NCBI GenBank assembly: GCA_902787375.1
Contig: CADAGD010000007.1
Coordinates: forward strand, 3,878-67,877
DNA length: 64,000 bases
DNA from: an uncultured Eubacteriales bacterium
GTDB lineage: Bacteria > Bacillota > Clostridia > Christensenellales > CAG-138
Direction of reading: 5' to 3'
The notes under the pieces are model-generated. The model saw only the letters and a program-made list of their open reading frames with translations, was not told the origin of the DNA and did not search any database. Both the position numbers and the translations under genes were made by a program. This document shows, piece by piece, positions 23,057 through 55,162 of this stretch; positions within the stretch are counted from its first letter, which is position 1; the number at the start of each line of letters is the position of its first letter.

Positions 23057-23141
23057 TGGTGGACGGGGATGGATTCGAACCATCGTAGTCTGTGACAACG
23101 GATTTACAGTCCGCTCCCTTTGGCCGCTCGGGAACCCGTCC
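23057..23141 (-). tRNA. tRNA-Tyr (anticodon GTA)
   Basis: Minus-sense GGACGGGTTCCCGAGCGGCCAAAGGGAGCGGACTGTAAATCCGTTGTCACAGACTACGATGGTTCGAATCCATCCCCGTCCACCA; long variable arm, CCA encoded. Confidence 0.9.
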
Positions 23142-23161
23142 GTATTAAATTCAGCATAAAC

Positions 23162-23189
23162 ATTATACAACAAAAAAAGCGATTGTCAA
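23162..23189 (-). promoter_or_regulatory. Promoter of tRNA-Tyr
   Basis: Minus-sense TTGACA (23184-23189), 16 nt, TATAAT (23162-23167). Confidence 0.6.
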
Positions 23190-23260
23190 ATATATTATTT
23201 GCCCTGTTCTTGCATATTTGCGGCTTGTAATTATATATTATTCGTATTCCGATTTTTACC

Positions 23261-23289
23261 TTGACTTTTTCAAATGTGTTTGATATAAT
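23261..23289 (+). promoter_or_regulatory. Promoter of the tRNA-Ser pair
   Basis: TTGACT (23261-23266), 17 nt, TATAAT (23284-23289). Confidence 0.6.
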
Positions 23290-23305
23290 AGTTTTGTTGA
23301 CGTTT

Positions 23306-23394
23306 GGAGAGATGGCCGAGTGGTTGAAGGCGCCGGTCTTGAAAACCGGTGATGTCGAAAGGCACCGGGGGTTCAAATCCCTCTCTCTCCGCCA
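23306..23394 (+). tRNA. tRNA-Ser (anticodon TGA)
   Basis: GGAGAGATGGCCGAGTGGTTGAAGGCGCCGGTCTTGAAAACCGG..., long variable arm, GGTTCAAATCC T-loop, CCA encoded. Confidence 0.9.
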
Positions 23395-23404
23395 ATACCG
23401 ATTT

Positions 23405-23496
23405 GGAGAAGTACCCAAGAGGTCGAAGGGGCTCCCCTGCTAAGGGAGTAGGCTCTGCGAAGGGGCGCCAGGGTTCAAATCCCTGCTTCTCCGCCA
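23405..23496 (+). tRNA. tRNA-Ser (anticodon GCT)
   Basis: GGAGAAGTACCCAAGAGGTCGAAGGGGCTCCCCTGCTAAGGGAG..., long variable arm, CCA encoded. Confidence 0.9.
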
Positions 23497-39678: not shown

Positions 39679-39755
39679 GCGCCTGTAGCTCAGGTGGATA
39701 GAGCAACGGTCTTCTAAACCGTGGGTCCGGGGTTCGAGTCCCTGCAGGCGCGCCA
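39679..39755 (+). tRNA. tRNA-Arg (anticodon TCT)
   Basis: GCGCCTGTAGCTCAGGTGGATAGAGCAACGGTCTTCTAAACCGT...CAGGCGCGCCA. Confidence 0.9.
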
Positions 39756-39783
39756 TTTTCAAAGCCGTCTGCAAAAGTGTTAT

Positions 39784-39861
39784 GGTGGGTGTAGTTCAGT
39801 TGGCTAGAATGCCAGATTGTGGCTCTGGAGGTCGTGGGTTCGAGCCCCACCACTCACCCCA
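39784..39861 (+). tRNA. tRNA-His (anticodon GTG, with G-1)
   Basis: G-GTGGGTGTAGTTCAGTTGGCTAGAATGCCAGATTGTGGCTCTGG...CACTCACCCCA. Confidence 0.9.
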
Positions 39862-39923
39862 TTTACTGAGAGCTTTTGACGCAGGGCAAGGGCTTTATTT
39901 ATGAAGTGGGACTTGTGAACCGT

Positions 39924-39998
39924 TGGGGTGTCGCCAAGTGGTCAAGGCATGGGACTTTGACTCCCACATCGTAGGTTCAAATCCTGCCACCCCAGCCA
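39924..39998 (+). tRNA. tRNA-Gln (anticodon TTG)
   Basis: TGGGGTGTCGCCAAGTGGTCAAGGCATGGGACTTTGACTCCCA...CACCCCAGCCA. Confidence 0.9.
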
Positions 39999-40005
39999 GC
40001 CTTTT

Positions 40006-40081
40006 GACCCGTTAGCTCAGTCGGTAGAGCACTTGACTTTTAATCAAGGTGTCCCGGGTTCGAATCCCGGACGGGTCACCA
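40006..40081 (+). tRNA. tRNA-Lys (anticodon TTT)
   Basis: GACCCGTTAGCTCAGTCGGTAGAGCACTTGACTTTTAATCAAG...ACGGGTCACCA. Confidence 0.9.
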
Positions 40082-40091
40082 AAATTATCGT

Positions 40092-40177
<86 letters not shown>

Positions 40178-40198
40178 CTACCCTGACAACAGAATAAC

Positions 40199-40272
40199 GC
40201 GGGTATAGTGTAATGGTAACACATTAGCCTTCCAAGCTGAGATAGAGGGTTCGAGTCCCTTTACCCGCTCCA
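40199..40272 (+). tRNA. tRNA-Gly (anticodon TCC)
   Basis: GCGGGTATAGTGTAATGGTAACACATTAGCCTTCCAAGCTGA...TACCCGCTCCA. Confidence 0.9.
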
Positions 40273-45271: not shown

Positions 45272-45700
45272 TCAAGCATGTGATATGTCGCTGCCTATCT
45301 GCTCCGTATCGAGCTTTTGCAGAAGCTCCTCAAAGGTACATACTACTCTTTCAATGCAGGGATGGAAATAGAAAACACATGTATGCTCATTGAAATCAAA
45401 ATCCTCCCAACGCTCGCTCCACAGAATTATGCGCTTATTGCCCCTTGTGGCTATCGCAAGTCCCAGTTCTGTATGAGTGCTGCTTCCTCCCGGCAAGAGT
45501 ACCACAACAAGCTCGGCATCCCTTACTGAGCGCAACCCATTGAAAGCCGCTTCGCTCATGCCCGAAATGCCTTCCTTGCTCACATCGTCAAAGAACACCC
45601 TGTTATCATAGGTCTGCTCATGACCTCTGCTTTTAAGCACCTCCGCAAGCGCGGCTGCCTTTCTTCCGTTTGCAATGCTTGAAGCGATATAAAACCTCAT
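45272..45700 (-). CDS. Nucleoside 2-deoxyribosyltransferase-like protein
   Basis: MRFYIASS..., ...LLPGGSSTHTELGLAIATRGNKRIIL pattern of the NDT-like fold. Confidence 0.5.
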   Translation of the reverse strand: MRFYIASSIANGRKAAALAEVLKSRGHEQTYDNRVFFDDVSKEGISGMSEAAFNGLRSVRDAELVVVLLPGGSSTHTELGLAIATRGNKRIILWSERWEDFDFNEHTCVFYFHPCIERVVCTFEELLQKLDTEQIGSDISHA

Positions 45701-46023
45701 TTGCCTTTCACTTCCTCTCCTGTGAGCCACTTATGCCCGTGCCAACACGCTTCCAAGCTACTGCGGGTTTTATGAAGCGCGTATTGATATATCCTTCAGA
45801 CAGGCACAATTCAATCACAAAGTTTCCCATCCGTGGGAAATTATACCACACCCTTCCCTAAAATGCAAGAAAAGCAATGCCATCCGACTAAAAACAGACA
45901 ATAAACACCCATTTTGAGCTGTATTTACATAGATTTTACAACTGACCTGTTGAAAAAGCGGCCATACTTGTTTATAATAAGGAAAGGTTATGCAGGAGCT
46001 TTCCTGCTGAAAGGTGCTTTATT

Positions 46024-46890
46024 ATGTTCGGTTATATCACTCCGCTTATACCTGAGTTGAAGGTCAGGGATAAGGAGCTTTATCAAAGCTATTATTGCGG
46101 CCTGTGCCGCGCTCTCGGCAAGTATGGTCTTGGCTCCAAGCTGTCGCTCACCTATGACGCGACATTCGCCGCCATACTGCTTTCGGCGGTTACGGACAGC
46201 GAGCCTGAGTTTACACCTCACGCCTGTGTTATCCATCCGGGACGCGGCAAAACTCCAATGGTCAAGCATGACGGCATAATGGATTTCTGTGCCGCGGTAT
46301 GCGTACTGCTTGCAAGGTACAAGCTCCTTGACGACGCTCAGGATGGCAGACCCGTAAGAAAAGCCGCCCTGCCCATTATCGCCCGCGGGATCAAACGCGC
46401 CGAGAGCAAGTATCCCGAAGTCGCAAAGGTACTCAGAGAAGGACTTGATATGTTCAACGGTCTTGAAACATCCAAGGACTGTGATCCCGACGACGCTCCC
46501 CTGCTGTTCGGAGGAATACTTGGGAATCTGCTCGCAGCATACCCCGGTCTTGACAGCTCGTCAAAGCCTCTTATAAAGGAGCTTGGAAGCAAGCTCGGCG
46601 GTTATGTCTATATAATCGATGACTGGGACGACGTTGTAGAGGACAAAAAGCGCGGTTCATACAACATTTTTACGCTCTCGCATTTTGATAATCCCCGTGA
46701 AACATGCGCGGCTTTGCTTGATATGTACATCAATTCTGCGGTGCTTGCCTATGATTTAATGGACATAAAGGTCAACAAGCCCCTGCTTGACAACATAATG
46801 TACATGGGATTGGGCTATCGCGCCGCAGAGGTCATAAACAAGGGCAGAAAACAGGATAAGGAAAGCTCAACGGAGGAAGTAATAAAGTGA
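46024..46890 (+). CDS. DUF5685-like protein
   Basis: [34 protein letters not shown]-terminus typical of the family found next to J-domain genes in Clostridia (from memory); TTGAAA-17-TATAAT promoter at about 45950-45980. Confidence 0.6.
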
Positions 46891-47615
46891 ACCCATATCA
46901 GGTATTGGGCGTTTCGCCCTCGGCTTCTCAGGAGGAGATTCGAGAAGCCTATATGAAGCTCGTAAAAAAATACCATCCCGACCGCTATCAGGATTCCAAC
47001 CTGAAAAAACAGGCCGAGGATAAGATGAAACAGATAAACGCCGCTTATGATATGCTGACAAAGAAGTCTTCCGGCTCATCCGGCTCATCTTACGGCCCCG
47101 GTTCAAGTCAGTCCTCCGGCAGTTACGGTAATTACGGTTCATCCGGCGGCTATGGCGGTTACGGCGGTTACGGTCAATATGGCAATTACGGCAATTACGG
47201 CGGCTATGGGGGATACGGTCAATACGGGTCGGGCGGCAGAACCGGTTCAAGCTCATATTCCGGGCAGTATGCCTCTGAGTTCTCCCGTGTCCGCACATTC
47301 ATCAACAACGGGAATATAGCCGCCGCAATGTCGCTTCTTGGGAGCATACCCCTGCACAATGCCGAGTGGAATTTCCTTTACGGAATGTGCTGCTACAGGA
47401 ACGGTCAGTACACCCGCGCATATGAGTACATATCCCGCGCCTGCCAAATGGATCCGTCAAACACCGAATACATATCCGCCCTTTCATCCATGAGAGGCGC
47501 GTCCTCAACCTCTCGCACATGGACATCTCGCGGAAGCGACTATGACTGCTGTACGGTCTGCGGAACCATGCTCTGCGCCAACATGATGTGCAATATGTGC
47601 TGCCGCGCACGCTGA
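46887..47615 (+). CDS. J-domain protein with Gly/Tyr-rich low-complexity region and Cys-rich tail
   Basis: [33 protein letters not shown] (HPD motif); [37 protein letters not shown]; C-terminal [19 protein letters not shown]; GTG start overlaps the upstream stop. Confidence 0.8.
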
Positions 47616-47660
47616 GAAGCGGCATTATAAACCAAATCAACCTATGAGGTGAATCCACAA

Positions 47661-48203
47661 ATGAAACGTCTACCTACGAGTCTTATGGCAGCGGCGCTCG
47701 GTATGAGCATTGCCGTATCGGTGCTGTGCCTGTTCGCGGCAAGCGTTACGGAAATAATCCCGCTTTCCGCAGTATGTCTGTTCTTCGCTTCTCTAATGAC
47801 ATGGATACCCGTGCGCGAGGAACACGGCTACATATTCGCGGCAATAAAGTTTACAGCCGTGACGGCAATATCGCTTATGATCTGCCCCGGTATCTACACA
47901 TATCTTTACATACTGATTTTCGGCAATTACGCTCCTCTGCGCCTGTTCCTTCGCACAAGGCTCGACGACCGCTTTCTCACGGTGCTTCTTAGGATGCTCT
48001 ATTTCAACCTCCTGGTCTGTATAGGACTTGCCGTCACACAGTTCATACTCCACTATGACGTTATGATGTTCATTCCCGGCATCCCCGTATACATACCCGT
48101 TGCGGCTCTGGAGGTTGGCTTCATCGTTTATATGCTTATCTATAAGTTCTTTTCATATCTGTTCGATTCGGCTTTGAGGAATAAGCTGATGCCGAGACGT
48201 TGA
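47661..48203 (+). CDS. Polytopic membrane protein, hypothetical
   Basis: Five or six TM helices; GAGGTG RBS 9 nt before ATG 47661. Confidence 0.5.
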   Translation: MKRLPTSLMAAALGMSIAVSVLCLFAASVTEIIPLSAVCLFFASLMTWIPVREEHGYIFAAIKFTAVTAISLMICPGIYTYLYILIFGNYAPLRLFLRTRLDDRFLTVLLRMLYFNLLVCIGLAVTQFILHYDVMMFIPGIPVYIPVAALEVGFIVYMLIYKFFSYLFDSALRNKLMPRR

Positions 48204-48221
48204 TAAAGCATACTTTAAACA

Positions 48222-48249
48222 CCCCGTGCGGGAAGCTTCCTGCACGGGG
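48222..48249. terminator. Bidirectional hairpin terminator
   Basis: ccccgtgcgggaagcttcctgcacgggg between convergent genes. Confidence 0.65.
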
Positions 48250-48255
48250 CTGTTA

Positions 48256-49461
48256 TTATTCATCATCGGTTTTATTTTTATAATACTCATGCACGAGGCT
48301 TTTAAGTCCAAGCGATCTCATATAATCATAGCGCACATTGAACCGCGCCTTTGTGCTTTTGCCGCTGACAAGGCGGCGCACGCAATCCTGCGCATAGCGG
48401 TCAATGGCATTCAAGCTCTTTGTCGTATTTATGACGGGAAAGAACCAGTAAGTCCACGTCAGTTCATTGTCCGACACGCTCTCGAAAAGCTTGCGGTTGA
48501 ATATCCTTATGAACGCCTTTGCCGCCCTCTCCCCCTCTATGCCGTTCCTGTCCCGCCATCTTGCAAGGGCGCGCATCTTGCGGCGCATCTTATGCTTGAG
48601 CTTATCCAGCGACGCCGGAGCAATATCTATAACTCCGTGTCTGTATGAGAATCCCAAAAATACAAAGCCCTCATCAGGGGAGGAAAAACGCTCCTTATCG
48701 GGATTCAGCTCAAGTCCGTTCTCCTTCAAAAAGCTTCGCACCGTTTCAGCGTGTCCCTGCGCCCCCTCACGGGTTTTCGCAAAGAGTATTATATCATCCG
48801 AATAGCGGCAATAAGGCACTCCAAGCTTCTCAAAATGCCTGTCAAGCTCCGTCAGGAACAGATTCGCGTAGAACGATGCGAGGGGCGTTCCCGCCATAAT
48901 ACCCTTTCTTTCCTTGATGCGCTCACCGTTTTCAAGCACATACGGCTCCTCAAGAAGCCTTTTCAAAAAGGCATAAAGCTCCTCATCATCCCCCATCGCG
49001 TTCTTTAAAAGCGGCAGAAGCCTTTCAATATCTATCGAGTTGAAATAATTGCTTATATCCGCCTTATAGGAGTACATCTCCCCCACCCCTCTGACGCGCA
49101 GGAGCGACATTATGGCGTCCTTTGCCGTTCTTCCCGGACGGAACGAAAACAGGTTATCGGCAAACAACCCGTCATTTCTTCTCAGCATAATGTATGTAAG
49201 CAGCTTCAGGACCCGGTTATGGGCATCCGGGTATGTGTACACAACACGCTTTTTCTGCGTGGATTGCTTGCTTATAATCGACTTTTGCGGCAGAGGGAAA
49301 TCGCAGCCTAACGCAATGCTCTCGCATACGGGAATGTATCCCCTGCTGTCTATGAACCGACGCAGCTCCCTTTTCAGTCTGTCGGGACAGACAAGCCCCG
49401 ACTTATACTCATAAAACCGTTCCCACACGCTTACATCCGACAGCTCGTCCAAAATGCTCAT
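48256..49461 (-). CDS. Stand-alone reverse transcriptase (RNA-directed DNA polymerase), 401 aa
   Basis: RT motifs KKRVVYTYPDAHNRVLK, FSFRPGRTAKDA, YKADISNYFNSID, GIMAGTPLASFYANLFL, RYSDDIILF (YSDD at 48793-48804), FVFLGFSY; start at ATG 49461 (MSILDEL). Confidence 0.85.
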   Translation of the reverse strand: MSILDELSDVSVWERFYEYKSGLVCPDRLKRELRRFIDSRGYIPVCESIALGCDFPLPQKSIISKQSTQKKRVVYTYPDAHNRVLKLLTYIMLRRNDGLFADNLFSFRPGRTAKDAIMSLLRVRGVGEMYSYKADISNYFNSIDIERLLPLLKNAMGDDEELYAFLKRLLEEPYVLENGERIKERKGIMAGTPLASFYANLFLTELDRHFEKLGVPYCRYSDDIILFAKTREGAQGHAETVRSFLKENGLELNPDKERFSSPDEGFVFLGFSYRHGVIDIAPASLDKLKHKMRRKMRALARWRDRNGIEGERAAKAFIRIFNRKLFESVSDNELTWTYWFFPVINTTKSLNAIDRYAQDCVRRLVSGKSTKARFNVRYDYMRSLGLKSLVHEYYKNKTDDE

Positions 49462-49499
49462 AAAACGCCTTTCAATCGGGATATTATAATAAAAACCGA

Positions 49500-49691
49500 C
49501 CCATATCCGAAAGCTGTGCCTTCGGACACGGATCGTCAACAAACAGGGGCGAAAGAAATTAAATTCAGGAAGTTCCTGAATGTACCGGGCCGTACACGGA
49601 CACGCTGCCTGCAAAGCCGCCGCTTTAAAGCGTCAAAAGTCCGTGCCTTGCCCCCCGCAGGCGCATGGCGTTCCGCCCCCGTCGTTTGCCC
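49500..49691 (-). ncRNA. Candidate structured RNA upstream of the RT (hypothetical)
   Basis: GC-rich intergenic segment with several stems (ggcg-gaa-cgcc, ccgt-gt-acgg, attcaggaa/ttcctgaat, tccgaa-N8-ttcgga); no homology evidence. Confidence 0.25.
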
Positions 49692-50210
49692 TTACATGGA
49701 GCTGATGCCAAGCGCGCCGCGAACACGTTCCCTGACATATGTCCTTGTGTTCCACCAACCGAAATGATCGAAATAGAAGCGCAGATACGGAGTACCCGTT
49801 TCCTTGCAATCATTGCGGAGCTTATTCGCCTCGCTCTTTTCGGTCATAAGCTCGACAACAAGCTCTATCCTTCCGTTTCGCTCAAGCGTGAAATACGATC
49901 TGCGTCCTATGTCAAGCTCGGAATACTTGGCCTCATACCCCGCAAAATCCTCACGGAATATCATCCTAAAATAATCGACATAGTTCCCGTTGTAATTGTA
50001 CTGGCATTCCTCGGCAGGTATCCTGTCATAGTATCCGCAGCCCTCATCAGGCTCCGACGGTGCGGACGTGTGTTCGACACTCGGAGCGTTCGCTGTGCTC
50101 TGGCTGCCCGTCTGCGGCTTATCGCCAAGTATCTCGCCGACAACGGCTTCGGCAACCTTGCCCGCGACCTCATTCTTGACCTTATTGATTATACTTGAAA
50201 GCAAACTCAT
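49692..50210 (-). CDS. Hypothetical protein, possibly a PD-(D/E)xK / DUF2726-like nuclease fold
   Basis: AGGAGG RBS 8 nt before ATG 50210; C-terminal ...YFTLERNGRIELVVELMTEKSEANKLRNDCKETGTPYLRFY pattern; the assignment is tentative. Confidence 0.45.
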   Translation of the reverse strand: MSLLSSIINKVKNEVAGKVAEAVVGEILGDKPQTGSQSTANAPSVEHTSAPSEPDEGCGYYDRIPAEECQYNYNGNYVDYFRMIFREDFAGYEAKYSELDIGRRSYFTLERNGRIELVVELMTEKSEANKLRNDCKETGTPYLRFYFDHFGWWNTRTYVRERVRGALGISSM

Positions 50211-50379
50211 ATGGCTTACCTCCTTTTTTATTTGATTATACCAGAGTATATCCCGTTTGGCAATAGCCGTTGTGACGGCATATATAAACTTTTTGTGCAA
50301 ACATACATTTGGGGATTGTTTGCGGGCTTGCCATAATGTATAATCTAATTAACACAATATTCTCTTTTGAGGTGATAAA

Positions 50380-50871
50380 ATGAGCATCAGGACACTCTAT
50401 CTCGCAGGCGGCTGTTTTTGGGGTACGCAGCGTTTCTTCGACCAGTTTGACGGCATAATAAATACCGAGGTCGGATATGCCAACGGGCCAACCGAAAACC
50501 CCACATACAAGGATGTATGCGCATCCTCCGGTCATGCGGAAACCGTTAAGGTCGTATTCGACGACGCCTTGATTTCAGCCCGGAAACTTCTTGAATACTA
50601 TTTCATGGTGATAGACCCCATATCCATCAACAGGCAGGGCGGCGACACGGGCATACAGTATCGCACGGGCGTCTACTACGATGACGATTCCCTCCTTCCC
50701 GCAATAAGAGCGGTCTTTGACGAGGAACAGAAAAAGTATTCTCAGCCTCTTGCCGTCGAGCTGCTCCCGCTTGAGAACTTCTTCAGCGCGGAGGAATACC
50801 ATCAGAAGTACCTTGAGAAGAATCCGACGGGCTACTGTCACATACCATCAAGCATGTTCGAGCTTGATTAA
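50380..50871 (+). CDS. msrA: Peptide-methionine (S)-S-oxide reductase
   Basis: LAGGCFWGTQRFF active-site motif, ...GYCHI. Confidence 0.9.
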   Translation: MSIRTLYLAGGCFWGTQRFFDQFDGIINTEVGYANGPTENPTYKDVCASSGHAETVKVVFDDALISARKLLEYYFMVIDPISINRQGGDTGIQYRTGVYYDDDSLLPAIRAVFDEEQKKYSQPLAVELLPLENFFSAEEYHQKYLEKNPTGYCHIPSSMFELD

Positions 50872-51015
50872 ATGCAATAAAGCAACAGCTTTGGGCGCGG
50901 AATTAAACTTCGCGCTTTTTATTAATGCTGTTTATGCAGAGTTTAACGCAAGCTGTGCCCGAACTGTTGCATACCGCTTTTTTTATGCTATCATATAGCG
51001 CAAGGAGGTGATCGG

Positions 51016-51465
51016 ATGAAGATAAAGCTTGTCCTGAGCGATGAGAACCACGATATTGTCGCCGACTTTCTCACAAAGCACGGCATAGAGATAGACGATT
51101 CGTCCGAATTTGTGCTTATAGAACAGAACAGGTATCCTCAGCACTTGACCGTGAAGGACGGGCGCGGCGAACGTGCACTCATAAGTGTGGACGACATAGT
51201 CCTCATAGAAACATTCGGACACACGGTTTCCGTCGTCACAGCCGACGGCGAATACACATCGCAGTTAAGGCTTTATCAGCTTGAGCTGACTCTCGACCCG
51301 GCGCGTTTCCTTCGCATCAGCAACTCCGTTATCATTCAGAGGAACAAGATAAAGAGGATACTGCCGTCATTGTCAATGAGATTCGTTCTTGAGATGTGTA
51401 ATTCCCGGAGGGTGGACGTCACCCGAAGCTACTATTTGAAATTCAAAGAATATTTTAAAATCTGA
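51016..51465 (+). CDS. LytTR family DNA-binding protein
   Basis: ISVDDIVLIETFGHTVSVVTADGEYTSQLRLYQLE...FLRISNSVIIQRNKIKRI. Confidence 0.8.
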   Translation: MKIKLVLSDENHDIVADFLTKHGIEIDDSSEFVLIEQNRYPQHLTVKDGRGERALISVDDIVLIETFGHTVSVVTADGEYTSQLRLYQLELTLDPARFLRISNSVIIQRNKIKRILPSLSMRFVLEMCNSRRVDVTRSYYLKFKEYFKI

Positions 51466-51477
51466 CAGGAGGTTATT

Positions 51478-52503
51478 ATGTCATCTACAGTTATATCAAC
51501 ATGGGGTATTATAATCGTACTGATCGCCATAATCACCGTAGCCGTTGTGTACATTGCATCCTATAAATCACGGCTTAAACGGGCGGTCAATAACGAGAAT
51601 ATGGGCAATTCCATGCCTTCTCCGGCAGGCTTCTTCGCTGTGTTCGGAGTCTTCGTTATAGCCGGACTGATAATCTGGCTGATAATTAAAATGGGCAGCA
51701 TTACCGACAGCATAGCAGCATTGCAAAACAATCTCAATTACAACCTTGCAGGCATCAGCAATCAGCTTGACAATCTCAATTCCGAACCCGAATATAAGAA
51801 TTTTTCGTCAATAGTCTATGATTCCGATTTAGATTTGAAAAGCGGTTCAGGCAATCTCAGGATAGAAGCCATACCCACGTCGGTCTCGTTGGATGCCAAA
51901 ATCGCCGTGAATTTAGAAGGCTCAATATATGAGCTTAAAAACCATGGCGGCATATACTCCTGCGACATTGAGCTTTCACTTGAAAAACCTGAGCTTGTTG
52001 AATGTCTTAATGAAGGTTGTGATGCCTTAATAACAGTCACTCAAAACGGTGTAATGAGTACGGATACCTTTACTGTTTGGCTTGTAAAACAACTGCCTGT
52101 TTTAAGCTTTAAGGACTTCCGTGAACCAACGATCAATTTTAATGATTCGGAAAAGGAGCTTGAAAAAAGCACGTTTACATTCTCTGAGTATCCAACCTTA
52201 GAGATTTCCACAGAAGGTGTTGAACTGCCTGATTTCTCAGCAGAGATAAATGTCTTTAGAATGGTCAATGAGGAATCTTCCATAATCGAGACAATTCCCG
52301 TTGAGCTGACCTATGAAGGAGATGACATCTATACTCTTACTCCACACTTTGACAGCACATATCCCGCGCTTGATAATGTGAGTTTCTTCCTCTATCTAAG
52401 GCTTGAAAATGGACTGAGCTTATGCTTTGGAGATTTCTTAAACGTTTCATTGAACAACGTACAGTTCAACAATTACCTCGAAGCCGATCTCCTATTTGAA
52501 TAA
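51478..52503 (+). CDS. Membrane-anchored hypothetical protein
   Basis: Two N-terminal TM helices, large extracytoplasmic domain; GGAGG RBS. Confidence 0.5.
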   Translation: MSSTVISTWGIIIVLIAIITVAVVYIASYKSRLKRAVNNENMGNSMPSPAGFFAVFGVFVIAGLIIWLIIKMGSITDSIAALQNNLNYNLAGISNQLDNLNSEPEYKNFSSIVYDSDLDLKSGSGNLRIEAIPTSVSLDAKIAVNLEGSIYELKNHGGIYSCDIELSLEKPELVECLNEGCDALITVTQNGVMSTDTFTVWLVKQLPVLSFKDFREPTINFNDSEKELEKSTFTFSEYPTLEISTEGVELPDFSAEINVFRMVNEESSIIETIPVELTYEGDDIYTLTPHFDSTYPALDNVSFFLYLRLENGLSLCFGDFLNVSLNNVQFNNYLEADLLFE

Positions 52504-55006: not shown

Positions 55007-55083
55007 TGGTAGCGGCAATCTGATTCGAACAGATGACACTCCGGGTATGAACCGAATGCTCTAGCCAGCTGAGCTATGCCGCC
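55007..55083 (-). tRNA. tRNA-Met, elongator type (anticodon CAT)
   Basis: Minus-sense GGCGGCATAGCTCAGCTGGCTAGAGCATTCGGTTCATACCCGGAG...TGCCGCTACCA; resembles Bacillus elongator tRNA-Met; tRNA-Ile2 not formally excluded. Confidence 0.8.
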
Positions 55084-55086
55084 AAA

Positions 55087-55162
55087 TGGTTGCGGGGGAA
55101 GGATTCGAACCAACGACCTTCGGATTATGAGCCCGACGAGCTACCTGCTGCTCCACCCCGCG
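55087..55162 (-). tRNA. Initiator tRNA-fMet (anticodon CAT)
   Basis: Minus-sense CGCGGGGTGGAGCAGCAGGTAGCTCGTCGGGCTCATAATCCGAAG...CCCCGCAACCA; C1-A72 mismatch, G-rich anticodon stem. Confidence 0.85.

What the first reader, a model, noticed from the sequence alone, without database searches (positions are those of the whole stretch)
48256..50210. Orphan reverse transcriptase with an upstream small protein: candidate defence-type RT module of unclear class
The 401-aa ORF has all RT palm/finger motifs and YSDD. It is not embedded in recognisable group II intron RNA: it lacks the intron-encoded-protein-type N-terminus and I see no domain V-like sequence. It lacks the retron VTG motif and NAxxH region, having FLGFSY instead. 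It lacks the DGR (I/L)GxxxSQ motif, and I find no TR/VR repeat pair when comparing the intergenic region with the 3' end of the upstream gene. It has about 65 aa N-terminal and about 130 aa C-terminal extensions and no fused effector domain. It sits between a bidirectional terminator and a 230-nt GC-rich spacer. Upstream of that spacer lies a 172-aa protein with a strong RBS, whose C-terminus loosely resembles a PD-(D/E)xK/DUF2726-like fold. Single-gene RTs with an upstream ncRNA are the architecture of some published DRT/UG systems, but I cannot assign this one.
Basis: partly seen in the sequence, partly recalled or inferred. Interest (0 to 1): 0.72.

Follow-up and report, generated by a model that had tools for sequence, protein, structure and literature searches.

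The report
UG26 reverse transcriptase, RNA and partner
This is a typical copy of a catalogued but never tested bacterial reverse-transcriptase module (UG26), made of a small nuclease-like protein, a structured non-coding RNA (Rfam RT-5) and the enzyme, and it probably copies part of that RNA into DNA as an anti-phage defence.

Summary

The class can be assigned.
- The RT matches PADLOC RT_UG26 end to end (E 4.7e-171). UG26 is a Class 2 UG/Abi group.
- The small protein matches PADLOC RTasCOG2852 end to end (E 4.7e-46).
- The spacer holds Rfam RT-5 RNA (RF03026, 77.6 bits against a threshold of 45.7).

Group II intron, retron and DGR membership each fail tested features.

In 80 related loci from rumen and gut Clostridia, 77 of the 78 with intact upstream sequence carry all three parts in the same order. 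No other gene recurs nearby.

The RNA is larger than the Rfam model, about 150 nt. A covarying 17-bp closing helix and a covarying pseudoknot bring the total to 53 pairs, 93% paired against 35-50% for slid controls.

The partner's predicted fold resembles restriction endonucleases only weakly, and the canonical catalytic motif is not conserved.

I found no experimental paper on UG26. Its function is inferred from characterised Class 2 relatives (DRT2, DRT9, DRT10): RNA-templated, probably repetitive, cDNA synthesis. There is no defence-island signal.

Verdict: a new member of a known but uncharacterised kind, of moderate interest.

The parts
50235..50263 (-). Sigma-70-like promoter of the module: TTGCCA, 17-nt spacer, TATAAT, with an extended -10 TG
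   Evidence: 11 of 12 consensus matches, TG present. It lies 25 nt upstream of the small gene's ATG. Consensus match only; it has not been shown to be functional.
49692..50210 (-). Partner gene (172 aa; AGGAGG RBS at 50224-50219). The protein has an N-terminal amphipathic helix, a disordered variable linker, and a conserved C-terminal domain of about 110 aa with a restriction-endonuclease-like topology.
   Evidence: Full-length match to PADLOC RTasCOG2852 (E 4.7e-46). No Pfam or NCBIfam hit. Present directly upstream of the RT in 77 of 80 loci. AF2 model: C-terminal domain pLDDT above 90, helix 77-88, strands 93-100, 104-111 and 114-122, helix 130-138, strand 142-146, helix 156-167. Foldseek: EcoT38I E 0.013 and EndoMS E 0.13. 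In the 52-sequence alignment A5 the invariant residues are P65, E67, Q70, Y80, F81, E120, R132, Y142, R144, Y146, H149, G151-W-W-N-T-R156, Y158 and R162. A subset of these is also invariant in the 64-sequence locus alignment A4, where E67, Q70, Y80 and R156 fall to 90% or more and H149 and T155 are not listed. N-terminal hydrophobic moment 0.57 against 0.36 for shuffled sequence.
49538..49687 (-). Structured ncRNA of about 150 nt, measured from one strand of the closing helix P1 to the other. It contains the Rfam RT-5 match (49551-49666).
- P1: 49687-49671 with 49554-49538
- Small hairpin CGC/GCG: 49670-49663
- Pseudoknot: 49662-49656 with 49613-49607
- P2: 49655-49649 with 49591-49584
- P3: 49646-49639 with 49601-49594
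- Variable loop with an extra hairpin: 49638-49619
- P4: 49618-49615 with 49606-49603
- P5 hairpin: 49580-49564
- Conserved single strand UUUAA-UUUC: 49563-49555
   Evidence: Rfam RF03026: 77.6 bits against a gathering score of 45.7, E 1.6e-13, model positions 1-104 of 104. A 70-sequence alignment (A3) and pair counts support the structure: 53 pairs, 93.4% paired against 35-50% for slid controls, 37 pairs with changes on both sides, 0 of 500 shuffles as good. RNAalifold independently finds P1, P2, P3 and P5. The single-sequence fold has z = -5.3. The nhmmer profile is found in 77 of 80 loci, always between partner and RT.
49487..49535 (-). Terminator-like hairpin plus U-run between the ncRNA and the RT gene. 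It is a likely attenuator that would make the partner mRNA and ncRNA more abundant than the RT mRNA.
   Evidence: 18 pairs (9 GC), loop of 3, tail GTTTTTATTA. The hairpin also appears in the MFE fold. The closest relatives (L002, L005, L008, L015) have equivalent hairpins. In most other loci the U-run that follows P1 takes its place: at least 8 T in 12 nt in 48 of 70 loci. The function is inferred.
48256..49461 (-). Reverse transcriptase gene (401 aa), UG26 group, Class 2 UG/Abi. Catalytic YSDD is at residues 220-223. A conserved C-terminal LVH(E/A)YY (391-394) is followed by a variable charged tail.
   Evidence: PADLOC RT_UG26: E 4.7e-171, 567 bits, residues 1-398 against profile positions 1-397 of 398. 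The next best named UG group, RT_UG17, has E 7.6e-32; a generic PADLOC 'RT' model ranks between them at E 3.1e-35. Pfam RVT_1 E 1.4e-25. AF2 pLDDT 88. Foldseek TM-scores: GsI-IIC RT 0.73, G2L4 0.70, DRT9 0.66, DRT2 0.59. C-terminal motif.
48222..48249 (.). GC-rich palindromic hairpin between the convergent RT gene and the 184-aa membrane-protein gene; a shared terminator.
   Evidence: palindrome, 95% complementary. The scan flags it as a terminator on the + strand only; the U-tract on the RT strand is weak.

Best explanation
The locus is a self-contained three-part retroelement of the UG26 group (Class 2 UG/Abi reverse transcriptases).

**Transcription (inferred).** One promoter drives a small partner protein and, in its 3' UTR, a structured RNA of about 150 nt (Rfam RT-5, extended here by a long closing helix and a pseudoknot). 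A terminator or U-run after the RNA lets only some transcripts continue into the RT gene.

**Shown.**
- The identity of the three parts.
- Their near-obligate co-occurrence among close relatives.
- The RNA secondary structure.

**Inferred from characterised Class 2 relatives (DRT2, DRT9, DRT10).** The RT binds the RNA in cis and repeatedly copies a short internal template into single-stranded DNA. The best candidate template is the conserved single strand UUUAA-N4. It is framed by hairpin P5 and by closing helix P1, whose first three pairs (GAA/UUC) never vary. The predicted product is either a tandem repeat of 9-10 nt, (GAAATTAAA)n in this window, or an A-rich homopolymer-like DNA. Synthesis may be primed from one of the conserved C-terminal tyrosines.

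**Partner (inferred).** It is a nuclease-fold domain that has lost the canonical catalytic motif, on a flexible linker behind an amphipathic N-terminal helix. It probably binds or senses that DNA and acts as effector or regulator.

**Biological role.** Most likely anti-phage defence, by family analogy only.
For: **Identity.**
- The RT matches RT_UG26 over its full length (E 4.7e-171).
- The partner matches RTasCOG2852 over its full length (E 4.7e-46).
- The spacer matches RT-5 RNA above the Rfam threshold.

**Literature on UG26.** Mestre 2022 places UG26 in Class 2 and notes the COG2852-like neighbour (PMC9226505).

**Module conservation.**
- The partner is present in 77 of 80 loci. Two exceptions are cut by contig ends and one (L009) is a solo RT.
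- The RNA is present in the same 77 loci.
- No third gene recurs in the flanks, and the flanks differ between loci.

**RNA structure.** 53 pairs, 93.4% paired against 35-50% for slid controls, and 37 pairs with changes on both sides. This includes 13 of 17 pairs in P1 and 3 of 6 in the pseudoknot. RNAalifold agrees on P1, P2, P3 and P5.

**Class 2 logic from the literature.**
- The ncRNA is encoded in cis.
- A short template is framed by two stem-loops.
- In DRT10 the helix formed by the 5' and 3' ends marks the 3' template boundary.
- Priming is from a C-terminal Ser or Tyr after a conserved helix (bioRxiv 10.1101/2025.10.16.682844; 10.64898/2026.06.29.735271).

**Matching features here.**
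- The closing helix P1.
- The invariant UUUAA, and invariant GAA/UUC in an otherwise covarying helix.
- The conserved C-terminal HEYY with a predicted terminal helix.

**Expression layout.** Promoter, RBS and internal terminator are.
Against: **No experiment.** I found no experimental data on UG26 or RT-5. Mestre 2022 rated the defence prediction for UG26 'inconclusive'.

**No defence context.**
- Here the module sits among housekeeping genes: sigma factor, DUF5685-DnaJ, MsrA, LytTR, aconitase.
- None of the 9 neighbouring proteins scanned against PADLOC hits a defence model.
- Only a handful of 133 neighbours from 40 other loci hit any PADLOC model at E 1e-10.

**Template and primer are guesses.**
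- The template assignment rests on analogy. The A/A' microhomology is only UUU and UU.
- The conserved tyrosines are 3-30 residues from the C-terminus, not at it as in DRT10.

**Partner fold is weakly supported.**
- The best Foldseek hit has E 0.013 and TM 0.32.
- There is no Pfam DUF559 or Vsr hit.
- The canonical D...(D/E)xK is absent.

**Sampling bias.** The 80 loci are the closest of at least 411 relatives. The 77 of 78 figure may therefore overstate linkage across all of UG26; Mestre reported 9 of 35.
Confidence: 0.6

Rival explanations
1. Retron-like element. The closing helix P1 plays the role of the a1/a2 repeats. A conserved G in the CGC just 3' of the P1 5' strand primes through its 2'-OH. 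The RT copies the 3' part of the RNA (UUUAA-N4, then P5 and beyond) into a branched msDNA. The partner protein is the retron effector.
For: The layout effector-ncRNA-RT, with an ncRNA closed by long inverted repeats, resembles retron anatomy. Weinberg et al. 2017 speculated that many RT-associated RNA motifs belong to retrons (PMC5737381). A nearly invariant CGC follows the P1 5' strand directly.
Against: The RT scores far below the retron model cut-offs: retron_St85_RT 46.9 bits against 235, and Ec67 11.6 bits against 450. It lacks VTG and NAxxH. It matches UG26 at 567 bits, against 48 bits for the best retron RT model in PADLOC. P5 has only 7 pairs, shorter than I recall msd stems usually being. 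Characterised Class 2 UG RTs prime from protein or from the RNA 3' end, not from a branch.
Confidence: 0.1
2. The module is not a defence system. It would be a domesticated or selfish RT-RNA element with another role, for example DNA repair like the group II intron-like G2L4 RTs, gene regulation, or maintenance of some replicon. The partner would be a DNA-binding accessory.
For: There is no defence-island signal here or in 40 related loci. Mestre 2022 could not predict defence for UG26. The predicted RT fold is closest to group II intron RT and G2L4 (TM 0.73 and 0.70). The module is very common in one ecological guild: at least 411 species representatives, and the best 80 are all rumen or gut Clostridia.
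Against: Every UG/Abi group tested so far has turned out to be anti-phage (DRT1-11). The genomic contexts vary with no conserved neighbour, as expected for a horizontally shuffled accessory module. As I recall, G2L4-type RTs have no dedicated ncRNA, whereas this RNA is nearly obligate. No close homologue occurs in phage or viral collections.
Confidence: 0.2
3. Remnant or unusual group II intron, or DGR, whose RNA parts were missed.
For: Many database names for homologues read 'group II intron reverse transcriptase domain-containing protein'. TIGR04416 gives E 7e-35.
Against: - TIGR04416 scores 120.7 bits against a cut-off of 300.
- No group II intron RNA family turned up, even in a permissive Rfam scan of 48000-50600.
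- There is no maturase or endonuclease Pfam domain.
- There is no TR/VR repeat and no [IL]GxxxSQ motif.
- The conserved RNA lies wholly upstream of the RT and is only about 150 nt.
Confidence: 0.02

Closest known systems
UG26 group of Class 2 UG/Abi reverse transcriptases (Mestre et al. 2022, NAR, PMC9226505; PADLOC models RT_UG26 and RTasCOG2852)
   Same: The RT matches the UG26 profile end to end. It has no fused domain, as is typical of Class 2. The upstream partner matches the profile built from the cluster that Mestre found beside 9 of 35 UG26 RTs.
   Different: Nothing differs at the protein level; this is a typical member. Three points are added here.
- The partner is nearly always present among close relatives (77 of 78).
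- A dedicated ncRNA lies between the two genes. The 2022 paper describes ncRNAs only for UG2, UG3+UG8, UG28 and UG27.
- The 'COG2852/Vsr-like' label of the partner is not reproduced by Pfam or by structure search.
RT-5 RNA motif (Rfam RF03026; one of RT-1 to RT-19 in Weinberg et al. 2017, PMC5737381)
   Same: A full-length match above the gathering score, next to an RT gene.
   Different: The conserved element is larger than the 104-position Rfam model. It has a covarying 17-bp closing helix, a 3-bp CGC/GCG hairpin, and a 6-7-bp pseudoknot between the 5' GCCUGCG and the P4 loop. The pseudoknot is not visible in the model's structure line. The 2017 paper offered only a general guess (retron or DGR) for the RT motifs. 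I found no paper that links RT-5 to UG26.
DRT10 (UG17): RT + ncRNA + SLATT, with telomerase-like, protein-primed tandem-repeat synthesis (bioRxiv 10.1101/2025.10.16.682844; 10.64898/2026.04.29.721553; 10.64898/2026.06.29.735271)
   Same: UG17 is the next best named UG group after UG26 in PADLOC (E 7.6e-32). Both are tripartite with an effector, a cis ncRNA and an RT. In both, the ncRNA is closed by pairing of its 5' and 3' ends. Both have a short single strand framed by two helices and a conserved C-terminal helix with nearby Tyr.
   Different: - The effector here is a soluble nuclease-fold protein, not a SLATT membrane protein.
- The gene order is effector-RNA-RT rather than RNA-SLATT-RT.
- The RNA has a different fold, with a pseudoknot.
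- The conserved tyrosines are not at the extreme C-terminus.
- Product, priming and defence are all untested here.
DRT9 (UG28): RT + ncRNA, with poly-dA synthesis from a conserved poly-U template
   Same: DRT9 is the best UG-family structural match in the PDB (TM 0.66). PADLOC Drt9 gives E 1.4e-27. Both RNAs have an invariant U-run in a single-stranded region.
   Different: The U-run here is only UUU within UUUAA. A dedicated partner protein is present here. No oligomer information is available.
Retrons
   Same: The order effector-ncRNA-RT, and an ncRNA closed by inverted repeats.
   Different: The RT lies outside the retron clade by profile scores and lacks VTG and NAxxH.

Membership tests
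UG26 (Class 2 UG/Abi RT) | RT sequence falls in the UG26 group (profile match clearly better than to any other UG, Abi, retron or group II model) | tested here: met
   RT_UG26 E 4.7e-171, 567 bits, residues 1-398 of the protein against positions 1-397 of 398. The next model is a generic PADLOC 'RT' at E 3.1e-35 (120 bits); the next named UG group is UG17 at E 7.6e-32 (109 bits). No tree was built.
UG26 (Class 2 UG/Abi RT) | Class 2 trait: the RT is not fused to any other known domain | tested here: met
   only RVT_1 (63-271), plus a sub-threshold RdRP_1 overlap. The AF2 model aligns over its whole length to compact RTs.
UG26 (Class 2 UG/Abi RT) | Co-location with the cluster-1531 'COG2852' protein (reported for 9 of 35 members, so optional) | tested here: met
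   RTasCOG2852 E 4.7e-46, residues 1-167 against positions 1-166 of 167. The gene lies directly upstream on the same strand.
UG26 (Class 2 UG/Abi RT) | Anti-phage activity (needed for a DRT name) | not testable with these tools
   I found no experimental paper. Context gives no defence-island signal.
RT-5 RNA (Rfam RF03026) | Covariance-model score at or above the gathering score | tested here: met
   77.6 bits against 45.7; model positions 1-104 of 104; not truncated.
RT-5 RNA (Rfam RF03026) | Location next to a reverse transcriptase gene | tested here: met
   The P1 3' strand ends 76 nt upstream of the RT start. The arrangement is the same in 77 loci.
Retron | RT of the retron clade, with VTG in motif 7 and NAxxH | tested here: not met
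   both motifs are absent; the retron models score 46.9 against 235 and 11.6 against 450 bits.
Retron | msr/msd RNA closed by a1/a2 repeats with a branching G | tested here: inconclusive
   A closing helix exists and a conserved CGC follows it. Branching cannot be assessed from sequence.
Group II intron | Intron RNA domains flanking the ORF (Rfam group II families, domain V) | tested here: not met
   (the second a permissive scan at E up to 1 over 48000-50600) return only RT-5.
Group II intron | Intron-encoded protein of the RT/maturase type (TIGR04416 above its cut-off; maturase domain) | tested here: not met
   120.7 bits against a cut-off of 300; no maturase domain.
Diversity-generating retroelement | TR/VR repeat pair, and RT with [IL]GxxxSQ | tested here: not met
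   no such repeat within 46000-52500; the motif is absent.
DRT10 (UG17) | UG17-clade RT with a SLATT effector | tested here: not met
   the UG17 profile scores 109 bits against 567 for UG26. No SLATT or transmembrane protein is in the module. The partner has no Pfam hit.
PD-(D/E)xK nuclease / COG2852 (DUF559, Vsr-like), for the partner protein | Restriction-endonuclease-like alpha-beta-beta-beta-alpha-beta core | tested here: inconclusive
   The AF2 topology fits. Foldseek gives only weak hits: EcoT38I E 0.013 with TMq 0.32, and EndoMS E 0.13.
PD-(D/E)xK nuclease / COG2852 (DUF559, Vsr-like), for the partner protein | Conserved catalytic D...(D/E)xK, or the E-x-D-G-x-x-H of DUF559 | tested here: not met
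   only E120 on the third strand is invariant. No conserved D lies before strand 2, and there is no K at +2. No member hits Pfam DUF559 or Vsr even at E up to 10.

The most novel reading that the evidence does not exclude
UG26 with RT-5 is a new type of Class 2 defence reverse transcriptase. The RT would make protein-primed, short tandem-repeat or A-rich DNA from the UUUAA-N4 strand of a pseudoknotted RNA closed by a long helix, an architecture that recalls the telomerase RNA core. The DNA would be read by a so far unseen kind of effector: a catalytically degenerate nuclease-fold domain, dimeric, tethered by an amphipathic N-terminal helix. That would extend the 'DNA synthesis as immune signal' theme to Gram-positive rumen and gut anaerobes with a non-SLATT effector.
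Probability: 0.3. Interest if true: 0.7.

Novelty: new member of a known kind. Interest (0 to 1): 0.45.

Why it matters
Each Class 2 UG reverse transcriptase studied in the papers read here has shown an unexpected way of using DNA synthesis:
- a gene written de novo (DRT2);
- poly-dA (DRT9);
- telomerase-like repeats (DRT10).

UG26 is one of the groups still without any experiment.

This analysis gives whoever takes it up a defined unit of about 2 kb, with promoter, partner, a 150-nt RNA with a tested secondary structure, and the RT. It also gives at least 77 natural variants for comparison, and concrete predictions for template, product and priming residue.

It links two catalogue entries that I could not find connected in the literature: Rfam RT-5 and UG26. 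It also corrects the partner's annotation: the fold is perhaps nuclease-like, but the catalytic motif is lost.

The module is common in rumen and gut Clostridia, at least 411 species representatives.

Tried and rejected
1. **DRT2/Neo-type rolling-circle gene.** The length of the element inside P1 is spread evenly over the three classes modulo 3 (28, 22 and 20 of 70). Stop-free concatemer frames occur in only 28 of 70 sequences, so there is no ORF constraint.
2. **GUAC-N6-GUAC as an A-B-A' template.** The two invariant GUA, 10 nt apart, turned out to sit at helix ends. Each has G paired, U in a G·U wobble, and AC unpaired, once the better P2 register was found. I downgraded this to a repeated structural module.
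3. **Phage origin.** There is no close homologue in IMG/VR (best 27-29% identity) or in INPHARED phages (best place covers no more than 66% of the query, at about 25% identity).
4. **Defence island.** Neighbours in the window and in 40 other loci give almost no PADLOC hits.
5. **Island borders.** No flanking direct or inverted repeats were found. Same-species contigs all carry the module, so no empty site was found.
6. **Partner annotation by sequence.** Nothing usable came from Pfam, from NCBIfam (window protein only), or from a PDB sequence search with a profile. A structure search against viral models was not informative.
7. **Structure prediction with locus-derived sequences.** I repeated it with database proteins.
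8. **Alternative pairing of CGC (columns 28-30) with GCG (columns 56-58).** RNAalifold proposed this. It competes with the pseudoknot. In L040, L045 and L054 column 57 changes to G together with column 112 changing to U. That keeps the pseudoknot pair and breaks the alternative, so I prefer the pseudoknot.
Full report
**1. Observation.** On the minus strand the window holds the following, in transcription order.
- A sigma-70-like promoter: TTGCCA, 17 nt, TGnTATAAT, at 50263-50235.
- An AGGAGG ribosome-binding site.
- A 172-aa ORF (50210-49692).
- A 230-nt spacer (49691-49462).
- A 401-aa ORF (49461-48256).
- A GC-rich palindromic hairpin (48249-48222) shared with a convergent gene.

The 401-aa protein has RVT_1 over residues 63-271, YSDD at 220-223 and FLGF at 268. 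It has no VTG, NAxxH or [IL]GxxxSQ. The spacer is 53.9% GC against 47.7% for the window. The one qualification is 'bidirectional terminator': the hairpin has a convincing U-tract on only one strand.

**2. Identity of the proteins.** Against PADLOC-DB the RT matches RT_UG26 from end to end (E 4.7e-171, 567 bits). A generic 'RT' model follows at E 3.1e-35, and the next named groups (UG17, UG27, UG4) have E near 1e-31. The 172-aa protein matches RTasCOG2852 from end to end (E 4.7e-46). NCBIfam models all score far below their cut-offs:

| Model | Score (bits) | Cut-off (bits) |
|---|---|---|
| Group II intron RT/maturase | 120.7 | 300 |
| Drt3a | 66.8 | 200 |
| Drt2 | 64.0 | 390 |
| Retron St85 | 46.9 | 235 |

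Mestre et al. 2022 (PMC9226505) define UG26 as a Class 2 UG/Abi group. They note that 9 of 35 members lie beside 'cluster 1531', annotated COG2852 (YcjD, Vsr-like). They list UG26 among the groups whose defence prediction was inconclusive. They describe ncRNAs for UG2, UG3+UG8, UG28 and UG27, but not for UG26.

**3. Identity of the spacer.** Rfam finds RT-5 RNA (RF03026) at 49666-49551 on the gene strand. The score is 77.6 bits against a gathering score of 45.7, and the whole model is matched. It is the only non-tRNA family in the 64-kb window. RT-5 is one of nineteen 'RT motifs' found near RT genes by Weinberg et al. 2017. They could only suggest that such motifs might belong to retrons or DGRs (PMC5737381). 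Downstream of the RNA, a hairpin with 18 pairs followed by GTTTTTATTA (49535-49497) looks like an internal terminator.

**4. Conservation of the unit.** The RT family is large.
- 3035 database clusters score E at or below 1e-10, though that count also includes other RT families.
- At least 411 species-representative genomes encode a relative.
- The 80 best are all rumen or gut Clostridia: Ruminococcus, Lachnospiraceae, Oscillospiraceae.

In 77 of these 80 loci a homologue of the 172-aa protein lies directly upstream on the same strand. A spacer of mostly 160-330 nt separates the two genes. A profile of the RNA is found in the same 77 loci, always between the two genes. Two exceptions are cut by contig ends. 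One (L009) is an RT with its own promoter and neither partner nor RNA.

Clustering all flanking ORFs shows no third recurrent gene, and the contexts vary. The unit is therefore partner plus RNA plus RT. The caveat is that these are the closest relatives of the query, so the linkage may be looser across all of UG26.

**5. RNA structure.** Aligning 70 spacers (A3) shows that conservation extends beyond the Rfam model. A purine-rich 5' run (consensus AAAAAACAGAAAGAGAA) pairs with a 3' pyrimidine run (UUCUCUUUCUGUUUUUU). Together they form a 17-bp closing helix, P1. Other features:
- A 3-bp hairpin, CGC-N3-GCG.
- A pseudoknot between GCCUGCG and the loop of P4.
- P2 of 7 bp with one bulge.
- P3 of 8-9 bp.
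- A variable loop that tolerates insertions: an extra hairpin in this window, and 70 nt in L016.
- P4 of 4 bp.
- P5 of 7 bp.

Counted on the alignment, 53 pairs are 93.4% paired, against 35-50% when partners are slid by 1-3 columns. Changes on both sides occur in 37 pairs: 13 of 17 in P1, 3 of 6 in the pseudoknot, 10 of 16 in P2 and P3, 4 of 4 in P4, and 6 of 7 in P5. None of 500 shuffles reaches the observed values. RNAalifold recovers P1, P2, P3 and P5 without guidance. The window's own spacer folds with z = -5.3.

In window coordinates the RNA spans 49687-49538. It starts 5 nt after the partner's stop codon, and no promoter-like site lies in between. It is therefore probably made as the 3' UTR of the partner mRNA; this is an inference. 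In 48 of 70 loci the P1 3' strand runs into a U-rich tract with at least 8 T in 12 nt. This window and its nearest relatives instead have a separate terminator hairpin.

**6. What is left single-stranded and conserved.** Once the helices are assigned, the invariant unpaired nucleotides are few.
- AC after each of two GU-ending helix termini. These form two look-alike modules, 'GC / GUAC', at the bases of P2 and P3, 10 nt apart.
- The stretch (A/C)UUUAA-N4 between P5 and P1.

The three P1 pairs next to that stretch (G-C, A-U, A-U) are invariant or nearly so: the two A-U pairs in 70 of 70 sequences and the G-C pair in 69 of 70. The rest of P1 covaries freely.

**7. The proteins in three dimensions.**
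- **RT.** The model (pLDDT 88) is a compact fingers-palm-thumb enzyme. It is closest to GsI-IIC group II intron RT (TM 0.73), then G2L4 (0.70), DRT9 (0.66) and DRT2 (0.59). Its C-terminus carries a conserved LVH(E/A)YY, followed by a variable charged tail of 3-30 residues.
- **Partner.** The model is confident only in the C-terminal domain, where residues from about 60 onward have pLDDT above 90. The topology there is helix, three strands, helix, strand, helix, which is the restriction-endonuclease core.
- **Partner, structure search.** Foldseek gives only weak hits: EcoT38I E 0.013 and EndoMS E 0.13.
- **Partner, sequence searches.** Neither Pfam nor a PDB profile search finds anything usable.
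- **Partner, catalytic residues.** Only E120 on the third strand is invariant. The canonical aspartate and lysine are not conserved.
- **Partner, N-terminus.** It forms an amphipathic helix (hydrophobic moment 0.57 against 0.36 for shuffled sequence), followed by a disordered, variable linker.
- **Partner family.** It is narrow: 223 representatives among 1.84 billion proteins. Some members are tandem duplications and a few are zinc-ribbon fusions. The duplications suggest that the domain works as a dimer.

**8. How it most likely works.** Direct evidence stops at anatomy; the rest is analogy with Class 2 relatives. According to the recent papers I read, DRT2, DRT3, DRT9 and DRT10 all use a cis-encoded ncRNA. 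Two stem-loops frame a short template that is copied again and again. In DRT10 the helix formed by the RNA's 5' and 3' ends marks the 3' boundary, and synthesis starts from a C-terminal Ser or Tyr placed by a conserved terminal helix.

Mapped onto this RNA, the candidate template is UUUAA-N4, between P5 and P1. UUU at its 5' end and the invariant UU at the P1 base are possible realignment sites. For this window the predicted product is (GAAATTAAA)n, or A-rich DNA if only the U-run is used. Y393 and Y394 are candidate primers. The partner would bind or sense the product.

I rate the identity of the module at about 0.95, a defence role at about 0.6, and this specific template and primer assignment at about 0.25.

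**9. Alternatives.**
- **Retron-like branch priming.** The geometry allows it, but the RT's family and motifs speak against it.
- **A non-defence role.** This stays open. Neither this window nor 133 neighbours from 40 other loci show defence-island context, and Mestre 2022 found the same. No experiment on UG26 turned up; DRT numbering has reached DRT11, which is UG5.
- **Group II intron and DGR.** Both are excluded as far as sequence can tell.
- **A Neo-like concatemer ORF.** There is no length or reading-frame constraint, so this is excluded.
- **Phage origin.** Not supported.

**10. Verdict.** It is a typical member of UG26, a catalogued but experimentally untouched Class 2 UG/Abi group.

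Three things are new here, and they concern the family rather than this locus.
- Rfam RT-5 is the UG26 RNA.
- That RNA has a long covarying closing helix and a pseudoknot.
- Partner, RNA and RT form a nearly obligate unit among close relatives.

Interest is moderate. It would not surprise a specialist, but it is a well-defined entry point into an unexplored reverse-transcriptase system.

Noticed in passing
L009:5935-7209 (Ruminococcus sp. RGIG6843): A close UG26 RT (63% identity) stands alone. No partner gene and no RT-5 RNA occur anywhere in the 13-kb locus. It has its own promoter-like region, and a 159-aa ORF is divergently transcribed upstream (not scanned against any family). It is the only evaluable exception among 78 loci.
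   Followed up: partly
L016:5768-5999; window 49638-49619; L011:5654-5826: The RNA tolerates insertions at two places. The variable loop between P3 and P4 carries a 70-nt insertion in L016 and an extra small hairpin in this window. The loop of the CGC/GCG hairpin carries a GGGC...GCCC hairpin in L011.
   Followed up: partly
window 49594-49591 and 49585-49582 (alignment A3 columns 129-132 and 139-142): There are two invariant GUA(C), exactly 10 nt apart. Each closes a helix with a C-G pair and a G·U wobble followed by unpaired AC. They look like a duplicated structural module. This is intriguing because DRT10 binds two RT copies per RNA in a pseudo-symmetric way.
   Followed up: partly
alignment A3 columns 28-30 against 50-52 or 56-58 (window 49670-49656): The conserved CGC after P1 can pair with either of two GCG triplets. 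The second pairing competes with the pseudoknot. This could be a conformational switch or mere coincidence.
   Followed up: partly
proteins P0241-P0245, P0247 (379-433 aa); P0359 (854 aa), P0343 (294 aa): Some partner homologues are tandem duplications of the whole domain. Others carry an N-terminal zinc ribbon and very long proline/glutamine-rich repeats before the conserved domain.
   Followed up: partly
window 47115-47236 (within ORF 46887-47615, +): A run of 9-nt repeats encodes a Gly/Tyr-rich low-complexity segment inside a DnaJ-domain and TPR protein. That protein is translationally coupled to a DUF5685 protein (46024-46890).
   Followed up: no
window 45272-45730 (-): A 152-aa ORF has no Pfam or PADLOC hit. 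The gene callers on same-species contigs annotate it at 142 aa.
   Followed up: no
window 39679-40269 (+); 23060-23493; 55010-55162 (-): tRNA gene clusters: seven tRNAs within 600 nt at 39.7-40.3 kb, three at 23.1-23.5 kb, and two at 55.0-55.2 kb.
   Followed up: no
L055:2076-2653 and L078:5364-6000: In two loci about 600 nt of extra sequence separates the RT-5 RNA from the RT start. I did not examine what it is.
   Followed up: no
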